A stretch of 64,000 nt of DNA. It comes from Escherichia coli (GTDB lineage: Bacteria; Pseudomonadota; Gammaproteobacteria; Enterobacterales; Enterobacteriaceae). A program made the translations under genes and the position numbers. The notes under the pieces are model-generated. The model saw nothing but the letters and a program-made list of their open reading frames with translations. It was not told where the DNA came from and did no database searches. Positions 17,290 to 64,000 of this stretch are shown here, in pieces; the stretch's first letter is position 1; each line of letters begins with the position of its first letter. The stretch lies in the NCBI RefSeq assembly GCF_016026235.1, contig NZ_CP065613.1; one strand, given 5' to 3'.

Positions 17290-18912
17290 ATGAATACTCT
17301 CCCTGAACATTCATGTGACGTGTTGATTATCGGTAGCGGCGCAGCCGGGCTTTCACTGGCGCTACGCCTGGCTGACCAGCATCAGGTCATCGTTCTAAGT
17401 AAAGGCCCGGTAACGGAAGGTTCAACATTTTATGCCCAGGGCGGTATTGCCGCCGTGTTTGATGAAACTGACAGCATTGATTCGCATGTGGAAGACACAT
17501 TGATTGCCGAGGCTGGTATTTGCGATCGCCATGCAGTTGAATTTGTCGCCAGCAATGCACGATCCTGTGTGCAATGGTTAATCGACCAGGGGGTGTTATT
17601 TGATACCCACATTCAACCGAATGGTGAAGAAAGCTACCATCTGACCCGTGAAGGTGGCCATAGTCACCGTCGTATTCTTCATGCCGCCGACGCAACTGGT
17701 AGAGAAGTAGAAACCACGCTGGTGAGCAAGGCGCTGAACCATCCGAATATTCGCGTGCTGGAGCGCAGCAACGCGGTTGATCTGATTATTTCTGACAAAA
17801 TTGGCTTGCCGGGCACGCGACGGGTTGTTGGCGCGTGGGTATGGAACCGAAATAAAGAAACGGTGGAAACCTGCCACGCAAAAGCGGTGGTGCTGGCAAC
17901 CGGCGGTGCGTCGAAGGTTTATCAGTACACCACCAATCCGGATATTTCTTCTGGCGATGGCATTGCTATGGCGTGGCGCGCAGGCTGCCGGGTTGCCAAT
18001 CTCGAATTTAATCAGTTCCACCCTACCGCGCTGTATCACCCACAGGCACGCAATTTCCTGTTAACGGAAGCACTGCGCGGCGAAGGCGCTTATCTCAAGC
18101 GCTCGGATGGCACGCGTTTTATGCCCGATTTTGATGTGCGCGGCGAACTGGCCCCGCGCGATATTGTCGCCCGCGCCATTGACCATGAAATGAAACGCCT
18201 CGGCGCGGATTGTATGTTCCTTGATATCAGCCATAAGCCCGCCGATTTTATTCGCCAGCATTTCCCGATGATTTATGAAAAATTGCTCGGGCTGGGGATT
18301 GATCTCACACAAGAACCGGTACCGATTGTGCCTGCTGCACATTATACCTGCGGTGGTGTAATGGTTGATGATCATGGGCGTACGGACGTCGAGGGCTTGT
18401 ATGCCATTGGCGAGGTGAGTTATACCGGCTTACACGGCGCTAACCGCATGGCCTCGAATTCATTGCTGGAGTGTCTGGTCTATGGCTGGTCGGCGGCAGA
18501 AGATATCACCAGACGTATGCCTTATGCCCACGGCGTCAGTACGTTACCGCCGTGGGATGAAAGCCGCGTTGAGAACCCTGACGAACGGGTAGTAATTCAG
18601 CATAACTGGCACGAGCTACGGCTGTTTATGTGGGATTACGTCGGCATTGTGCGCACAACAAAACGTCTTGAGCGCGCCCTGCGGCGTATCAATATGTTGC
18701 AACAGGAAATAGACGAATATTACGCCCACTTCCGCGTGTCGAATAATTTGCTGGAGCTGCGTAATCTGGTACAGGTTGCCGAGTTGATTGTTCGCTGTGC
18801 GATGATGCGCAAGGAGAGTCGGGGGTTGCATTTCACGCTGGATTATCCAGAACTGCTCACCCATTCCGGTCCATCGATCCTTTCCCTCGGCAATCATTAC
18901 ATAAACAGATAA
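17290..18912 (+). CDS. nadB: L-aspartate oxidase
   Basis: 540-aa ORF; FAD-binding GSGAAG motif; matches NadB. Confidence 0.96.
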
Positions 18913-26822: not shown

Positions 26823-29483
26823 ATGAGTCAGCGAGGACTGGAAGCACTACTGCGACCAAAATCGATAGCGGTAATTGGCGCGTCGATGAAACCCAATCGC
26901 GCAGGTTACCTGATGATGCGTAACCTGCTGGCGGGAGGCTTTAACGGACCGGTACTCCCGGTGACGCCAGCCTGGAAAGCGGTGTTGGGTGTGTTGGCCT
27001 GGCCGGATATTGCCAGCTTGCCCTTTACACCCGACCTTGCGGTTTTATGTACCAATGCCAGCCGTAATCTTGCTCTTCTGGAAGAGCTCGGCGAGAAAGG
27101 CTGTAAAACCTGCATTATTCTTTCCGCCCCGGCATCGCAACACGAAGATCTCCGCGCCTGCGCCCTGCGCCATAACATGCGCCTGCTTGGACCAAACAGT
27201 CTGGGTTTACTGGCTCCCTGGCAAGGTCTGAATGCCAGCTTTTCGCCTGTGCCGATTAAACGCGGCAAGCTGGCGTTTATTTCACAATCGGCAGCCGTCT
27301 CCAACACCATCCTCGACTGGGCGCAACAGCGTGAGATGGGCTTTTCCTACTTTATTGCGCTCGGCGACAGCCTGGATATCGACGTTGATGAATTGCTCGA
27401 CTATCTGGCGCGCGACAGTAAAACCAGCGCCATCCTGCTCTATCTCGAACAGTTAAGCGACGCGCGACGCTTTGTTTCGGCAGCCCGTAGTGCCTCGCGT
27501 AATAAACCGATTCTGGTGATTAAAAGCGGACGTAGCCCGGCGGCACAGCGACTGCTCAACACGACGGCAGGAATGGACCCGGCATGGGATGCGGCTATTC
27601 AGCGTGCCGGTTTGTTGCGGGTACAGGATACCCACGAACTGTTTTCGGCGGTGGAAACCCTTAGCCATATGCGCCCGCTGCGTGGCGACCGGTTGATGAT
27701 TATCAGCAACGGTGCTGCGCCTGCCGCGCTGGCGCTGGATGCCTTATGGTCACGCAATGGCAAGCTGGCAACGCTAAGCGAAGAAACCTGCCAGAAATTG
27801 CGCGATGCATTGCCAGAACATGTGGCAGTCTCTAACCCGCTCGATCTGCGCGATGACGCCAGCAGCGAGCATTATGTCAAAACGCTGGACATTCTGCTCC
27901 ACAGCCAGGATTTTGATGCGCTGATGGTTATTCATTCGCCCAGCGCCGCTGCTCCCGCAACAGAAAGCGCGCAAGTATTAATTGAAGCGGTAAAGCATCA
28001 TCCCCGCAGCAAATATGTCTCTTTGCTGACGAACTGGTGCGGCGAGCACTCCTCGCAAGAGGCACGACGTTTATTCAGCGAAGCCGGGCTGCCGACCTAC
28101 CGTACCCCGGAAGGAACCATCACTGCTTTTATGCATATGGTGGAGTACCGGCGTAATCAGAAGCAACTACGCGAAACGCCGGCGTTGCCCAGCAATCTGA
28201 CTTCCAATACCGCAGAAGCGCATCTTCTGTTGCAACAGGCGATTGCCGAAGGGGCTACGTCGCTCGATACCCATGAAGTTCAGCCCATCCTGCAATCGTA
28301 TGGCATGAACACGCTCCCTACCTGGATTGCCAGCGATAGCACCGAAGCGGTGCATATTGCCGAACAGATTGGTTATCCGGTGGCGCTGAAATTGCGTTCG
28401 CCGGATATTCCACATAAATCGGAAGTTCAGGGCGTCATGCTGTACTTGCGTACAGCCAATGAAGTCCAGCAAGCGGCAAACGCCATTTTCGATCGCGTAA
28501 AAACGGCCTGGCCGCAGGCGCGGATCCACGGCCTGTTGGTGCAAAGTATGGCTAACCGTGCTGGCGCTCAGGAGTTGCGGGTTGTGGTTGAGCACGATCC
28601 GGTTTTCGGGCCGTTGATCATGCTGGGTGAAGGCGGTGTGGAGTGGCGTCCTGAAGATCAAGCCGTCGTCGCACTGCCGCCGCTGAACATGAACCTGGCC
28701 CGCTATCTGGTTATTCAGGGGATCAAAAGTAAAAAGATTCGTGCGCGCAGTGCGCTACGCCCATTGGATGTTGCAGGCTTGAGCCAGCTTCTGGTGCAGG
28801 TTTCCAACTTGATTGTCGATTGCCCGGAAATTCAGCGTCTGGATATTCATCCTTTGCTGGCTTCTGGCAGTGAATTTACCGCGCTGGATGTCACGCTGGA
28901 TATCTCGCCGTTTGAAGGCGATAACGAGAGTCGGCTGGCAGTGCGCCCTTATCCGAATCAGCTGGAAGAATGGGTAGAATTGAAAAACGGTGAACGCTGC
29001 TTGTTCCGCCCGATTTTGCCAGAAGATGAGCCACAACTTCAGCAATTCATTTCGCGAGTCACCAAAGAAGATCTTTATTACCGCTACTTTAGCGAGATCA
29101 ACGAATTTACCCATGAAGATTTAGCCAACATGACACAGATCGACTACGATCGGGAAATGGCGTTTGTAGCGGTACGACGTATTGATCAAACGGAAGAGAT
29201 CCTCGGCGTCACGCGTGCGATTTCCGATCCTGATAACATCGATGCCGAATTTGCTGTGCTGGTTCGCTCGGATCTCAAAGGGTTAGGCTTAGGTCGACGC
29301 TTAATGGAAAAGTTGATTACCTATACGCGAGATCACGGACTACAACGTCTGAATGGTATTACGATGCCAAACAATCGTGGCATGGTGGCGCTAGCCCGCA
29401 AGCTCGGGTTTAACGTTGATATCCAGCTCGAAGAGGGGATCGTTGGGCTTACGCTAAATCTTGCCCAACGCGAGGAATCATGA
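26823..29483 (+). CDS. patZ: Protein lysine acetyltransferase (acyl-CoA synthetase-like domain + GNAT)
   Basis: 886-aa ORF; matches PatZ (YfiQ/Pka). Confidence 0.95.
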   Translation: MSQRGLEALLRPKSIAVIGASMKPNRAGYLMMRNLLAGGFNGPVLPVTPAWKAVLGVLAWPDIASLPFTPDLAVLCTNASRNLALLEELGEKGCKTCIILSAPASQHEDLRACALRHNMRLLGPNSLGLLAPWQGLNASFSPVPIKRGKLAFISQSAAVSNTILDWAQQREMGFSYFIALGDSLDIDVDELLDYLARDSKTSAILLYLEQLSDARRFVSAARSASRNKPILVIKSGRSPAAQRLLNTTAGMDPAWDAAIQRAGLLRVQDTHELFSAVETLSHMRPLRGDRLMIISNGAAPAALALDALWSRNGKLATLSEETCQKLRDALPEHVAVSNPLDLRDDASSEHYVKTLDILLHSQDFDALMVIHSPSAAAPATESAQVLIEAVKHHPRSKYVSLLTNWCGEHSSQEARRLFSEAGLPTYRTPEGTITAFMHMVEYRRNQKQLRETPALPSNLTSNTAEAHLLLQQAIAEGATSLDTHEVQPILQSYGMNTLPTWIASDSTEAVHIAEQIGYPVALKLRSPDIPHKSEVQGVMLYLRTANEVQQAANAIFDRVKTAWPQARIHGLLVQSMANRAGAQELRVVVEHDPVFGPLIMLGEGGVEWRPEDQAVVALPPLNMNLARYLVIQGIKSKKIRARSALRPLDVAGLSQLLVQVSNLIVDCPEIQRLDIHPLLASGSEFTALDVTLDISPFEGDNESRLAVRPYPNQLEEWVELKNGERCLFRPILPEDEPQLQQFISRVTKEDLYYRYFSEINEFTHEDLANMTQIDYDREMAFVAVRRIDQTEEILGVTRAISDPDNIDAEFAVLVRSDLKGLGLGRRLMEKLITYTRDHGLQRLNGITMPNNRGMVALARKLGFNVDIQLEEGIVGLTLNLAQREES

Positions 29484-48313: not shown

Positions 48314-48328
48314 GGTAATGACTCCAAC

Positions 48329-48832
48329 TTATTGATAGTGTTTTATGTTCAGATAATGCCCGATGACTTTGTCATGCAGCTCCACCGATTTTGAGAACGA
48401 CAGCGACTTCCGTCCCAGCCGTGCCAGGTGCTGCCTCAGATTCAGGTTATGCCGCTCAATTCGCTGCGTATATCGCTTGCTGATTACGTGCAGCTTTCCC
48501 TTCAGGCGGGATTCATACAGCGGCCAGCCATCCGTCATCCATATCACCACGTCAAAGGGTGACAGCAGGCTCATAAGACGCCCCAGCGTCGCCATAGTGC
48601 GTTCACCGAATACGTGCGCAACAACCGTCTTCCGGAGACTGTCATACGCGTAAAACAGCCAGCGCTGGCGCGATTTAGCCCCGACATAGCCCCACTGTTC
48701 GTCCATTTCCGCGCAGACGATGACGTCACTGCCCGGCTGTATGCGCGAGGTTACCGACTGCGGCCTGAGTTTTTTAAGTGACGTAAAATCGTGTTGAGGC
48801 CAACGCCCATAATGCGGGCAGTTGCCCGGCAT
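48329..48832 (-). CDS. insB: IS1 InsB (transposase C-terminal frame; made as InsAB by -1 frameshift)
   Basis: 167-aa track ORF matching IS1 InsB. Confidence 0.93.
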
Positions 48833-49026
48833 CCAACGCCATTCATGGCCATATCAATGATTTTCTGGTGCGTACCGGGTTGAGAAGCGGTGTAAGTGAA
48901 CTGCAGTTGCCATGTTTTACGGCAGTGAGAGCAGAGATAGCGCTGATGTCCGGCGGTGCTTTTGCCGTTACGCACCACCCCGTCAGTAGCTGAACAGGAG
49001 GGACAGCTGATAGAAACAGAAGCCAC
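48751..49026 (-). CDS. insA: IS1 InsA (transposition inhibitor / DNA-binding protein)
   Basis: 91-aa track [43 protein letters not shown]..., GTG start. Confidence 0.93.
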
Positions 49027-49272
49027 TGGAGCACCTCAAAAACACCATCATACACTAAATCAGTAAGTTGGCAGCATCACCAAAGGGGCTGATGAAAATG
49101 CCAGCACAATACGATTAAATTAATTAAAACCCCACAAATAAATTAAACATAAGATTTTACTCATTATGTTTTATTTCTCACAATGATGACGACTGCATGA
49201 AATAATGATATTTTAATGAGCATTCAGAAAAAATATCGATGCATTTCGAGCGAAGATGGTGGGGATCCCTGA

Positions 49273-62182: not shown

Positions 62183-62665
62183 ATGACGAAGAAAAAAGCA
62201 CATAAACCTGGTTCAGCGACCATCGCGCTTAACAAGCGCGCCCGTCACGAATACTTTATCGAAGAAGAGTTCGAAGCGGGACTTGCCCTGCAAGGCTGGG
62301 AGGTTAAATCCCTGCGCGCAGGAAAAGCCAATATCAGCGACAGCTACGTCCTTCTGCGTGACGGAGAGGCATTTCTGTTTGGCGCTAACATCACGCCAAT
62401 GGCCGTGGCCTCCACGCATGTGGTGTGCGACCCTACCCGTACCCGCAAGTTACTTCTCAACCAGCGCGAACTGGACTCATTGTACGGTCGCGTCAATCGA
62501 GAAGGCTATACCGTAGTGGCGCTCTCCCTGTACTGGAAAAATGCCTGGTGCAAAGTGAAAATCGGCGTCGCCAAAGGTAAGAAACAGCACGATAAACGTT
62601 CAGATATCAAAGAGCGCGAATGGCAGGTGGATAAAGCGCGTATCATGAAAAACGCCCACCGTTAA
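62183..62665 (+). CDS. smpB: SsrA-binding protein SmpB
   Basis: 160-aa ORF matches SmpB. Confidence 0.97.
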
Positions 62666-62880
62666 ACCTGTACTCCAATTATTGACCAGTTCCTCACCGC
62701 GCCTCCCTCTCCGGCGGCGCGAATGAACATCTTATTGGTTATCACATCCGACACAAATGTTGCCATTCCATTGCTTAATCGAATAAAAATCAGGCTACAT
62801 GGGTGCTAAATCTTTAACGATAACGCCATTGAGGCTGGTCATGGCGCTCATAAATCTGGTATACTTACCTTTACACATTG

Positions 62881-63243
62881 GGGCTGATTCTGGATTCGAC
62901 GGGATTTGCGAAACCCAAGGTGCATGCCGAGGGGCGGTTGGCCTCGTAAAAAGCCGCAAAAAATAGTCGCAAACGACGAAAACTACGCTTTAGCAGCTTA
63001 ATAACCTGCTTAGAGCCCTCTCTCCCTAGCCTCCGCTCTTAGGACGGGGATCAAGAGAGGTCAAACCCAAAAGAGATCGCGTGGAAGCCCTGCCTGGGGT
63101 TGAAGCGTTAAAACTTAATCAGGCTAGTTTGTTAGTGGCGTGTCCGTCCGCAGCTGGCAAGCGAATGTAAAGACTGACTAAGCATGTAGTACCGAGGACG
63201 TAGGAATTTCGGACGCGGGTTCAACTCCCGCCAGCTCCACCAA
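62881..63243 (+). ncRNA. ssrA: Transfer-messenger RNA (tmRNA, 10Sa)
   Basis: 363-nt match GGGGCTGATTCTGGATTCGACGGG...GGTTCAACTCCCGCCAGCTCCACCA; internal tag ORF GCA AAC GAC GAA AAC TAC GCT TTA GCA GCT TAA (ANDENYALAA) at ~62970..63002. Confidence 0.95.
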
Positions 63244-63289
63244 AATTCTCCATCGGTGATTACCAGAGTCATCCGATGAAGTCCTAAGA

Positions 63290-63322
63290 GCCCGCACGGC
63301 GCAAGCCCTGCGGGCTTTTTTG
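63290..63322 (+). terminator. ssrA intrinsic terminator
   Basis: AGCCCGCA-CGGCGCAAGCCC-TGCGGGCT stem followed by TTTTTT. Confidence 0.7.
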
Positions 63323-63446
63323 TATCTGCAATTTGTCCCGCGAAGTCCGAAGAGAACTAATTAAATCCGAACCTTTTAGGCCCATTGATAGGCCCAACGA
63401 AAAGCTCTATTGTTTTCGTTGGGCCTAAACGCATGGAGACTCCCCA

Positions 63447-64000
63447 TGGCAAGAAAAACCAAGCCGTTAACCGATACGGAAATCAAAGCCGCCAAACCTA
63501 AAGATGCCGATTACCAGCTGTATGATGGTGACGGGCTTACTCTGTTAATCAAGTCCAGTGGTAGTAAGCTCTGGCAGTTCCGTTACTATCGACCTCTGAC
63601 AAAGCAGCGAACCAAGCAGAGCTTCGGTGCCTACCCTGCCGTCTCACTTTCTGATGCGCGTAAACTCAGAGCCGAATCTCGAGTTTTATTGGCAAAAGAT
63701 ATTGATCCTCAGGAACATCAGAAAGAACAGGTGAGGAATTCTCAAGAGGCCAAAACCAACACCTTCTTGTTAGTTGCCGAGCGTTGGTGGAATGTGAAGA
63801 AAGCCAGCGTGACAGAGGACTATGCCGACGATATCTGGCGCTCGCTTGAGAGAGATGTTTTTCCAGCAATCGGTGATATCAGTGTCACTGAGATTAAGGC
63901 TCATACTCTGGTTAAAGCAGTTCAGCCGGTTCAGGCTAGAGGTGCATTAGAAACTGTTCGCCGTCTTTGTCAGCGTATTAACGAAGTCATGATTTATGCG
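63447..64000 (+). CDS. intA: P4-family tyrosine integrase, N-terminal ~184 codons; continues beyond window end (prophage/island integrated at ssrA)
   Basis: ATG after a GGAGA RBS; translation MARKTKPLTDTEIKAAKPKDADYQLYDGDGLTLLIKSSGSKLWQFRYY... is typical of P4-like integrase N-terminal (DUF4102/arm-binding) domains; ORF runs off the window so it is absent from the ORF track. Confidence 0.85.

What the first reader, a model, noticed from the sequence alone, without database searches (positions are those of the whole stretch)
62881..64000. tmRNA gene followed by a P4-type integrase: boundary of a horizontally acquired island at the window edge
ssrA is a classic integration hotspot. About 200 bp after its 3-prime end a P4-family integrase begins and runs off the window. 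If anything accessory or novel is associated with this region, it lies immediately beyond coordinate 64000, not inside this window. The identity of the island (CP4-57-like cryptic prophage in K-12, or a different element in another strain) cannot be settled from the integrase N-terminus alone.
Basis: partly seen in the sequence, partly recalled or inferred. Interest (0 to 1): 0.5.

Follow-up and report, generated by a model that had tools for sequence, protein, structure and literature searches.

The report
Known ssrA–intA genomic island junction
The window ends at the well-known left junction (attL) of a mobile island inserted into the 3' end of the tmRNA gene ssrA by a CP4-57/P4-type integrase. 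This is ordinary biology; the only less familiar material, a rare NACHT defence-like cargo, lies beyond the window edge.

Summary
A full-length tmRNA gene lies at 62880..63242 (+), one base earlier than stated. An integrase ORF starts 203 nt later, at 63446, and stays open for 185 codons to the window end. Its N-terminus has the arm-DNA-binding and central domains of heterobivalent tyrosine integrases. It is identical to the 413-aa protein annotated IntA in public genomes, which is 94% identical to K-12 CP4-57 IntA and 35% identical to P4 Int.

The spacer holds a complete P4-style attL: the core in the ssrA 3' end, the ssrA terminator supplied by the island, and two tandem plus one inverted 12-nt arm sites (TAGGCCCA) overlapping a promoter-like site for intA.

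The source genome itself was not found. In near-identical genomes (1 to 3 mismatches per 10-13 kb), intA is followed by a low-GC cargo rather than K-12's yfjH-alpA. That cargo is three ORFans, a nuclease-NACHT STAND protein and a conserved 482-aa partner. A decayed CP4-57-like remnant follows, then a degenerate attR just before ypjA. This cargo occurs in only 13 of 5426 complete E. coli genomes, always with this intA allele.

The feature is already known and of low interest.

The parts
62183..62665 (+). smpB, the SsrA-binding protein. This is core-genome context upstream of ssrA.
   Evidence: 160-aa ORF; annotated smpB in collinear genomes.
62836..62865 (+). Promoter-like site for ssrA: TGGTCA, 18-nt spacer, TATACT, with an extended -10 TG.
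   Evidence: Consensus scan only. It ends 15 nt before the mature tmRNA 5' end. The assignment is an inference.
62880..63242 (+). ssrA, the tmRNA gene: 363 nt, tag ANDENYALAA, encoded CCA end.
   Evidence: ARAGORN; Rfam RF00023 at 292.8 bits, full length; one substitution relative to K-12, at 63199.
63200..63242 (+). Core and crossover region of attL, where host DNA meets island DNA. It is the T-arm and 3' acceptor strand of ssrA and ends TTCAACTCCCGCCAGCTCCACCA.
   Evidence: Genomes with other islands diverge from the window at 63243. The same island in a foreign background is identical from 63200 on, and the last host-specific mismatch is at 63191. Degenerate copies of this segment form attR in K-12, L013 and L002.
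63286..63325 (+). Intrinsic terminator of ssrA: a GC-rich hairpin plus a T-run. It is encoded by island DNA, not by the host.
   Evidence: Inverted repeat I2 at 63286-63319; terminator scan hit at 63303-63317 followed by TTTTTTGT. It lies to the right of the att core. A homologous hairpin sits at the same position in P4-like elements at ssrA (alignment A1).
63278..63371 (+). Three copies of the motif GAAGTCCKAAGAG / AAATCCGAA, at 63278-63290, 63342-63354 and 63363-63371. They may be accessory-protein sites (IHF, or an AlpA/Vis-type directionality factor).
   Evidence: Direct-repeat families D1 and D2. CATCCGA..AAGTCC, GTCCGA and AAATCC are conserved columns between this attL, P4-like elements and P4 attP. 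The function is inferred and was not tested.
63377..63427 (.). Arm-type integrase-binding sites (P' arm): tandem TAGGCCCATTGA (63377-63388) and TAGGCCCAACGA (63389-63400), plus inverted TCGTTGGGCCTA (63416-63427).
   Evidence: Repeats D3, I1 and I3. The only three TAGGCCCA words in the 64-kb window all fall within these 51 bp, against 1.29 expected for the whole window. Their number, spacing and orientation match the annotated P4 attP arm repeats next to int. P4-like satellites at ssrA carry their own words in the same alignment columns. Matching tandem sites TAGGACCAACAA and TGGGACCAAAAT lie about 60 nt inside attR in K-12 and L013.
63385..63413 (+). Promoter-like site for intA (TTGATA, 17-nt spacer, TATTGT), overlapping the arm sites.
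   Evidence: Consensus scan only. The overlap suggests Int autoregulation, as reported for P4 int (Piazzolla 2006, cited in PMC2951348). This is an inference.
63446..64000 (+). intA: the N-terminal 185 codons of a 413-codon P4-family tyrosine integrase. The arm-binding domain and most of the central domain are present. The gene runs off the window.
   Evidence: Translation; Pfam. It is identical over 185 aa to WP_000101724.1 'intA integrase'. That full-length protein scores 896.7 bits on NCBIfam NF007246, is 94% identical to K-12 IntA and 35% identical to P4 Int.

Best explanation
The region is the attL junction of a genomic island integrated into the 3' end of ssrA by a CP4-57-type (IntA) member of the P4 integrase family.

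Mechanism, as established for heterobivalent tyrosine integrases such as P4 Int and lambda Int: IntA binds the TAGGCCCA arm sites through its N-terminal domain and the core in the ssrA T-arm/acceptor strand through its central and catalytic domains. It recombines attP with ssrA. The island replaces the last ~40 nt of ssrA with its own identical copy and supplies the ssrA terminator, so tmRNA stays functional. The displaced original 3' end becomes attR at the far end of the island.

Shown here: the gene identities, the domain content, the host/island boundary and the arm-site architecture.

Inferred: binding of IntA to these sites, autoregulation of intA from a promoter overlapping them, and everything beyond base 64000. 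From genomes that differ from the window by 1-3 bases per 10-13 kb, the island most likely continues as follows: the rest of intA; a 261/270-aa ORFan; on the opposite strand a 565-aa ORFan, a 482-aa protein and a 1475-aa nuclease-NACHT STAND NTPase (which may or may not be cut by an IS); a decayed CP4-57-like remnant; and a degenerate attR immediately before ypjA.

In the IS-rich relative FDAARGOS_943 the attR-side arm sites are replaced by an IS and the attR core has lost CCACCA. There the composite island is probably fixed, and excision would destroy tmRNA.
For: tmRNA gene.

Integrase ORF and domains. Identity to annotated IntA. 94% to K-12 IntA. 35% and E 6e-83 to P4 Int, with R248, H337, R340, H363 and Y373 aligned to P4 catalytic motifs in the full-length relative.

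Boundary: other islands diverge at 63243. The same island in a foreign background is 100% identical from 63200, with 29 differences before that.

Arm sites. P4 annotation and alignment.

attR copies.

Downstream content in near-identical genomes: L016, 1 mismatch in 12,706 nt; L002, 3 mismatches in 9,914 nt; L013. Linkage of this allele to the cargo: the 12 best intA matches (99.8% or better) are 12 of the 13 genomes that hold the cargo. Cargo GC is 35-46%, against ~50% for the core.

Literature: CP4-57 integrates in ssrA, is excised on AlpA overproduction, and leaves the inactive ssrA deltaT357 (PMC10107115; PMC3105296). The tmRNA locus is a multi-element hotspot (PMC10121019).
Against: The catalytic domain, the cargo and attR are all outside the window. 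The source genome was not found: no complete E. coli genome is identical, and there was no exact hit among the species-representative genomes.

Carriers of the same intA allele differ in IS insertions and deletions, so the island in the source could be intact, truncated or almost gone.

No binding, promoter or excision experiment exists for this allele. The promoter calls are bare consensus matches.
Confidence: 0.9

Rival explanations
1. It is the K-12-type cryptic prophage CP4-57 itself: intA-yfjH-alpA-yfjI ... rnlAB ... ypjF, about 22 kb.
For: The same insertion site and the same attL spacer layout. The nucleotide sequence 63243-64000 differs from K-12 at 33 of 758 positions. The integrase is 94% identical overall, with 4 differences in the 185 N-terminal residues.
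Against: The 12 complete E. coli genomes whose intA region is 99.8% or more identical to the window carry the NACHT cargo or its IS-truncated remains next to intA, not yfjH-alpA. The two genomes nearly identical to the window over 10-13 kb do the same. The C-terminal ~13 residues of IntA differ from K-12, which marks a mosaic breakpoint.
Confidence: 0.05
2. It is a true P4-like phage satellite, with alpha primase, sid, delta, psu and epsilon, integrated at ssrA.
For: P4-like satellites do occupy ssrA in other E. coli genomes that share this core region (L018, L020, L022, L023). Their attL spacer is homologous to the one in the window.
Against: Those satellites have different integrases (398-407 aa) and different arm-site words. 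They align with the window only up to 63327-63338. None of the genomes examined here with the window's IntA has satellite genes downstream.
Confidence: 0.02
3. It is an integrase stump: intA is retained, but the island behind it has been deleted, so core genes resume within a few kb and no second att copy exists.
For: This state exists among carriers of the identical IntA protein. CP062908 goes intA, two cargo genes, IS1, kbp, with no attR. L007 goes intA, IS1, ygaQ-like gene, glaH. L017 goes intA, three cargo genes plus the NACHT C-terminal part (286 aa), IS1, gabP fragment. The window's lineage is IS-rich, with an IS1 at 48315-49082.
Against: The two closest relatives, with 1 and 3 mismatches, retain at least 4.6 to 7.6 kb of cargo. 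One of them retains a degenerate attR.
Confidence: 0.1

Closest known systems
Cryptic prophage CP4-57 of E. coli K-12 (ssrA-intA ... ypjF, with attR annotated as the pseudogene psaA)
   Same: It uses the same target, the ssrA 3' end. The attL spacer has the same layout, including the terminator and the three TAGGCCCA arm sites. The integrase is 94% identical. The P-arm words next to attR are the same in the relative L013. The right-hand gene set in relatives is the same: yfjI family, GTPase, DUF932, antirestriction, radC, DUF987 and the yeeU/cbtA-type toxin-antitoxin pair, ending before ypjA. An AlpA homologue at 52% identity is present in relatives.
   Different: The genes next to intA differ: the NACHT module replaces yfjH-alpA. 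A fragment of a second integrase gene, 85% identical to intA, sits between the NACHT module and the CP4-57-like part, which indicates a tandem or composite island. The attR core is more degenerate than in K-12: GCCAGCCCAATCA or GCCAGCCAATCA against GCCAGC-CCACCA.
Satellite phage P4 integrase and attP
   Same: The domain order is the same. Identity is 35% over 402 aa, and the catalytic R, H-x-x-R, H and Y motifs align in the full-length relative. Both integrate into the 3' end of a tRNA-like gene with int adjacent to attL. Both have two tandem 12-nt arm repeats plus one inverted repeat just upstream of int, and two tandem repeats on the other arm.
   Different: P4 targets leuX rather than ssrA. 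The arm word is different (TTGGGGGCAT against TAGGCCCA). No P4 replication or capsid-hijacking genes are associated with this integrase.
Bacterial NACHT / Avs (STAND NTPase) anti-phage proteins such as bNACHT25/32. This applies to the cargo beyond the window only.
   Same: The 1475-aa protein has an N-terminal Cap4/PD-(D/E)xK-like nuclease region, a central NACHT NTPase (PADLOC and precomputed Pfam) and a long C-terminal region with no hits. That is the tripartite architecture described for clade-6 bNACHT proteins (PMC12169576). It sits in a mobile island at a known defence hotspot.
   Different: No PADLOC family covers it beyond a weak partial Avs1b NTPase match at E 4e-11. It is translationally coupled to a conserved ~480-aa partner of unknown function, also in Shewanella and Burkholderia. 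No defence phenotype has been tested.

Membership tests
tmRNA (ssrA, Rfam RF00023) | A full-length match of sequence and secondary structure to the tmRNA covariance model above the gathering score; a tRNA-like domain with a CCA end; a tag reading frame. | tested here: met
   292.8 bits against a gathering score of 47, model positions 1-374 of 374. ARAGORN finds the tag ANDENYALAA**.
P4-family heterobivalent tyrosine integrase | An N-terminal arm-type DNA-binding domain (Pfam PF13356) followed by a central core-binding domain (PF22022). | tested here: met
   PF13356 at residues 8-95, E 7e-25. PF22022 at residues 108-185, E 2e-21, cut by the window end.
P4-family heterobivalent tyrosine integrase | A C-terminal catalytic domain (PF00589) with the R...H-x-x-R...H...Y residues. 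| not testable with these tools
   This part lies beyond base 64000. In the 413-aa protein whose first 185 aa are identical to the window, PF00589 is on record, and R248, H337, R340, H363 and Y373 align with the P4 Int motifs.
P4-family heterobivalent tyrosine integrase | Significant full-length sequence similarity to P4 Int. | tested here: met
   35% identity over 402 aa, E 6e-83, using the full-length relative. The in-window residues 8-185 are part of that alignment.
P4-family heterobivalent tyrosine integrase | An att site in the 3' end of a tRNA or tmRNA gene, with the int gene adjacent to attL and arm-type repeats between the core and int. | tested here: met
   The boundary lies at 63192-63242 inside ssrA. 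Three arm-type repeats lie at 63377-63427, in the same arrangement as the annotated P4 repeats.
CP4-57 (the K-12 element) | intA allele and attL spacer. | tested here: met
   94% protein identity. 33 differences in 758 nt across 63243-64000, with the same arm sites.
CP4-57 (the K-12 element) | K-12 gene content adjacent to intA (yfjH, alpA, yfjI, yfjJ, abpAB, rnlAB ...). | tested here: not met
   This could not be read in the window. In all near-identical relatives, intA is followed by the 261/270-aa, 565-aa, 482-aa and NACHT genes instead. Only a CP4-57-like right-hand part is present further on.
bNACHT / Avs antiviral STAND (cargo in relatives) | A tripartite protein with an effector domain, a NACHT or STAND NTPase and a sensor domain. 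| tested here: inconclusive
   The NACHT domain (Pfam) and an N-terminal nuclease-like region (PADLOC matches to a SAVED-PDDEXK model, an endonuclease effector and LmuA, E 3e-8 to 2e-5) are present. There is no full-length match to any PADLOC, NCBIfam or PDB entry.
bNACHT / Avs antiviral STAND (cargo in relatives) | Protection against phage infection. | not testable with these tools
   This needs a plaque or efficiency-of-plating assay.

The most novel reading that the evidence does not exclude
Just beyond the window edge, the island may carry an undescribed two-gene anti-phage system: a 1475-aa nuclease-NACHT STAND protein translationally coupled to a conserved ~480-aa partner. The partner is mis-annotated in NCBI as a DMT transporter permease. 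The partner family is 55-81% identical from Citrobacter to Pseudomonas, Burkholderia and Shewanella, and the NACHT-partner pairing was confirmed in Shewanella woodyi and Burkholderia cenocepacia. The partner's only structural hit is Avs3, which would fit a sensor module encoded separately from the NTPase. The pair travels with three ORFans on an IntA island that has recently moved between enterobacterial species.
Probability: 0.15. Interest if true: 0.45.

Novelty: already known. Interest (0 to 1): 0.14.

Why it matters
For the window itself it matters little. It is a textbook example of tRNA/tmRNA-targeted island integration, and the sequence is 99.8-100% identical to public genomes annotated ssrA and intA. 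Its practical value is as a signpost: it marks where the core genome stops.

Two modest points follow. First, in this IS-rich lineage the island looks immobilised, and its attR core has lost CCACCA. Any excision would therefore inactivate tmRNA, which extends the CP4-57 'excision switches ribosome rescue' picture (PMC10107115). Second, this rare intA allele is a reliable marker for an uncharacterised NACHT-containing cargo that could be tested as a defence system.

Tried and rejected
1. Finding the source genome.
- No complete E. coli genome is identical.
- An exact 51-nt scan of the species-representative genomes gave 0 hits.
- Exact-protein look-ups gave near-identical relatives only (L016 and L002).
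- The IS content (an IS1 in the window; IS600, ISSso6 and ISSfl3 in the relative) suggests a Shigella or enteroinvasive E. coli lineage. This was not proven.

2. Finding attR by BLAST with short words failed. A fuzzy pattern search was needed.

3. No internal att copy with 5 or fewer errors was found between the NACHT module and the CP4-57-like part. Only a fragment of a second integrase gene is there.

4. The cargo ORFans (261, 565 and 1260 aa) have no significant hits in PADLOC, NCBIfam or PHROGs. The only match is a marginal pVip hit for the 261-aa protein (E 0.005), which was disregarded. The 482-aa partner has no hits in these libraries either. The 1260-aa and NACHT proteins also have none in PDB sequences.

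5. The AlphaFold2 model of the 482-aa partner is only moderate (pLDDT 63, pTM 0.49). Its single Foldseek hit, Avs3 chain 8dgc_B at E 3.9e-5 but TM 0.34, is therefore a hint and not a result.

6. Williams 2002 and 2003 (tmRNA integration sublocations) are not held in the library. They are cited only through papers that cite them.

7. The 41-55-aa ORFs overlapping ssrA (62799-62966 and others) were rejected as gene-caller artefacts over an RNA gene.

Full report
**Observation**

- ARAGORN and the Rfam tmRNA model both place a complete, untruncated tmRNA gene at 62880..63242 on the + strand. The score is 292.8 bits against a gathering score of 47, and the tag is ANDENYALAA.
- The gene differs from K-12 ssrA at one base, U320C at 63199.
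- smpB lies just upstream at 62183..62665.
- An ATG at 63446, 203 nt after the CCA end and preceded by GGAG, opens a frame that runs 185 codons to base 64000 without a stop.
- Pfam finds the arm-type DNA-binding domain (residues 8-95, E 7e-25) and the phage-integrase central domain (residues 108-185, E 2e-21). The latter is cut by the window end.

**What the integrase is**

The 185 residues are identical to the start of WP_000101724.1, a 413-aa protein annotated 'intA, integrase' in RefSeq E. coli genomes.
- That protein scores 896.7 bits on NCBIfam NF007246.
- It is 94% identical to IntA of the K-12 cryptic prophage CP4-57, with four substitutions in the first 185 residues and a divergent last ~13 residues.
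- It is 35% identical to the integrase of satellite phage P4 over 402 residues (E 6e-83). The catalytic Arg, His-x-x-Arg, His and Tyr motifs align.
- Among deposited phages, only two Klebsiella temperate phages have a close homologue (85%). All other matches are below 47%.

It is therefore a P4-family integrase of the CP4-57 (IntA) type. The catalytic half lies outside the window.

**Anatomy of the junction**

The 203-nt spacer is a complete attL, not filler.

(a) Boundary.
- E. coli genomes that share the flanking core but carry other elements at ssrA stop aligning with the window at 63243, or at 63327-63338 for P4-like satellites, whose attP flank is homologous.
- Two genomes of a different enterobacterial background (L005, L006) carry the same island. 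Their ssrA differs from the window at 29 positions, and their upstream genes are a type I secretion/BapA-like cluster rather than smpB.
- They are 100% identical to the window from 63200 through 64000. Their last host-specific difference is at 63191.
- The host/island boundary and the crossover region therefore lie within the last ~50 nt of ssrA. The island has moved horizontally in the recent past.

(b) Terminator.
- The ssrA terminator hairpin and T-run (63286-63325) lie to the right of the core. The island supplies them.

(c) Arm sites.
- Two tandem 12-nt repeats, TAGGCCCATTGA and TAGGCCCAACGA (63377-63400), and one inverted copy (63416-63427) lie just upstream of intA.
- These are the only three TAGGCCCA words in the 64-kb window.
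- The annotated attP of P4 has the same arrangement: two tandem 12-nt arm repeats plus one inverted repeat abutting the int start.
- In a five-way alignment, P4 and two P4-like satellites at ssrA have their own, different words in the same columns.
- On the other arm, K-12 and strain 2017.02.03CC have tandem TAGGACCAACAA and TGGGACCAAAAT about 60 nt inside attR. This again matches the P4 layout.

(d) Promoter.
- A promoter-like site (TTGATA, 17-nt spacer, TATTGT; 63385-63413) overlaps the arm sites.
- This would allow autoregulation of intA, as reported for P4 int (cited in PMC2951348).
- Binding and regulation are inferences. The architecture is read directly from the sequence.

**What lies beyond the edge**

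The source genome could not be retrieved.
- The 25 kb before the edge is at most ~99% identical to any complete E. coli genome.
- The window carries an IS1.
- An exact-match scan of the species-representative genomes gave nothing.

Three assemblies are almost identical to the window and serve as proxies.
- GCA_031665325.1 (L016) has 1 mismatch in 12,706 nt.
- GCA_901482675.2 (L017) has 5 mismatches over the same 12,706 nt.
- FDAARGOS_943 (L002) has 3 mismatches in 9,914 nt plus an extra IS5-family insertion after 63359. It is rich in IS600, ISSso6 and ISSfl3.

In L016 the window-equivalent continuation is as follows.
- intA runs to 64687.
- A 270-aa ORF lies at 65220-66032 (+).
- A 565-aa ORF lies at 66186-67883 (-).
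- A 482-aa ORF lies at 68003-69451 (-).
- A NACHT gene starts at 69448 (-) and is recorded as 1475 aa.

In FDAARGOS_943 the NACHT gene is cut by IS600. Downstream of it come an integrase fragment, an AlpA-like gene, many IS elements, and then a degenerate att copy (TTCAGACTCCGCCAGCCAATCA) 157 nt before a truncated ypjA.

The best-preserved version is in strain 2017.02.03CC. Its order is:
1. intA
2. an IS1
3. the 261-aa gene
4. the 565-aa gene
5. the 482-aa gene
6. the NACHT gene (1475 aa)
7. a 1260-aa gene
8. a fragment of a second integrase gene, 85% identical to intA
9. an AlpA homologue, 52% identical to K-12 AlpA
10. CP4-57-like genes (YfjI family, GTPase, DUF932, antirestriction, RadC, DUF987, YeeU/CbtA)
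11. attR
12. ypjA

The locus is therefore a composite: an IntA/NACHT module fused to a decayed CP4-57-like element.

Further points on the cargo and its state:
- The cargo GC content is 35-46%, against ~50% for the core.
- The 12.4-kb cargo occurs in only 13 of 5426 complete E. coli genomes, always at one chromosomal place.
- Those 13 include all 12 genomes whose intA region is 99.8% or more identical to the window. The allele in the window is thus a good marker for this cargo.
- IS1-mediated deletions have removed most of the island, and attR with it, in some carriers. The state in the source genome remains uncertain.

**State of the island**

The attR cores are imperfect.
- K-12 has GCCAGC-CCACCA.
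- 2017.02.03CC has GCCAGCCCAATCA.
- FDAARGOS_943 has GCCAGCCAATCA.

In K-12, AlpA-induced excision leaves ssrA deltaT357, which abolishes trans-translation and switches ribosome rescue to ArfA (PMC10107115; PMC3105296). In the window's lineage the attR copy lacks CCACCA. In FDAARGOS_943 the attR-side arm sites have also been replaced by ISSso6. The composite island there is therefore probably fixed, and any excision would inactivate tmRNA. This is an inference.

**Cargo function (outside the window, partly followed)**
- The 1475-aa protein has an N-terminal Cap4/PD-(D/E)xK-like nuclease region and a NACHT NTPase, with a weak Avs1b match. This resembles clade-6 bNACHT proteins (PMC12169576).
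- The 482-aa gene overlaps the NACHT stop codon. It belongs to a well-conserved family, 55-81% identical in Citrobacter, Providencia, Pseudomonas, Burkholderia and Shewanella. NCBI mis-names it a 'DMT transporter permease'.
- In Shewanella woodyi and Burkholderia cenocepacia, the NACHT gene (1471-1474 aa) plus a 480-aa partner recur as a translationally coupled pair. The other three genes do not recur there.
- A moderate AlphaFold2 model of the partner (pLDDT 63) is soluble alpha/beta. Its only Foldseek hit in the PDB is Avs3 (E 3.9e-5, TM 0.34). This is a hint at best.
- The 261-, 565- and 1260-aa proteins have no significant hits in PADLOC, NCBIfam or PHROGs. The only match is a marginal pVip hit for the 261-aa protein, E 0.005. 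The 1260-aa protein also has none in PDB sequences.

**Comparison with what is known, and verdict**

ssrA as an integration hotspot, the CP4-57 IntA/AlpA system and the P4 integrase family are all established. The sequence in the window is 99.8-100% identical to annotated public sequence.
- The feature is already known and of low interest.
- What this analysis adds is the exact boundary, the P4-type arm-site map, the likely identity of the island (not K-12 CP4-57 but a rare IntA/NACHT composite) and evidence that it is decaying in this lineage.
- The only lead with some novelty is the NACHT plus 480-aa pair. It lies beyond the window and may be disrupted in the source genome.

Noticed in passing
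window 48315-49082: An IS1 copy, 99.5% identical to the IS1A of locus L001. Its right end abuts the last ~40 nt of yfiL. No 9-bp target duplication is evident, and the left flank has no exact match in the reference locus, so an adjacent deletion or rearrangement is possible. The near-identical FDAARGOS_943 has an intact yfiL.
   Followed up: partly
window 63199: The only difference between this ssrA and K-12 ssrA is U320C, in the 3' strand of a helix. It is shared by the near-identical assemblies L002, L007, L016 and L017 and is absent from the other loci checked, so it is a lineage marker. Its effect on pairing was not evaluated.
   Followed up: partly
L005 9387-21242 and L006 9387-17236 (GCA_040566455.1, GCA_013732395.1): The same IntA island is present in another enterobacterial background. 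intA and the attL spacer are 100% identical to the window, and the cargo is 98.6-99.9% identical. In that background the ssrA body differs at 29 positions and a type I secretion/BapA-like cluster precedes ssrA instead of smpB. This is evidence of recent inter-species transfer.
   Followed up: partly
L013 36909-42781; L026 5577-11443; L027 and L028 5586-11443: A nuclease-NACHT protein (~1471-1475 aa) and a ~480-aa partner form a translationally coupled pair that is conserved from E. coli to Shewanella and Burkholderia. The partner is annotated 'multidrug DMT transporter permease', but its predicted fold is soluble alpha/beta. Its only PDB fold hit is Avs3, and that hit is weak.
   Followed up: partly
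L014 (K-12) 28461-28482: K-12 has a third degenerate copy of the ssrA 3' end (TTCAGTCACTGCCAGCCCACCA) between pinH and ypjB, beyond the annotated attR (psaA). This suggests that the ypjA-pinH block is itself the remnant of an older island in a tandem array. The same copy is present in L013 at 17391-17412.
   Followed up: no
L015, L018, L020-L024 (E. coli genomes sharing the window's yfjF allele): The ssrA site holds very different elements in otherwise collinear genomes. These include P4-like satellites with a pair of reverse-transcriptase genes, a SIR2 gene or a DUF8426 gene next to int; an island with HxsD, two radical-SAM genes and DUF6119; and a P2-like prophage. This illustrates the defence-hotspot character of the locus.
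   Followed up: no
phage records OK490418.1 and OK490421.1 (Klebsiella phages Kp4865-2 and Kp4866-6): Two 45-47 kb Klebsiella temperate phages encode an integrase 85% identical to this IntA. The IntA type is therefore also used by complete phages and not only by cryptic islands.
   Followed up: no
window 62799-62966 (+) and 62795-62959 (-): Short ORFs of 54-55 aa (41 aa in some public gene calls) overlap the ssrA promoter and 5' half. They are almost certainly gene-caller artefacts over an RNA gene.
   Followed up: partly
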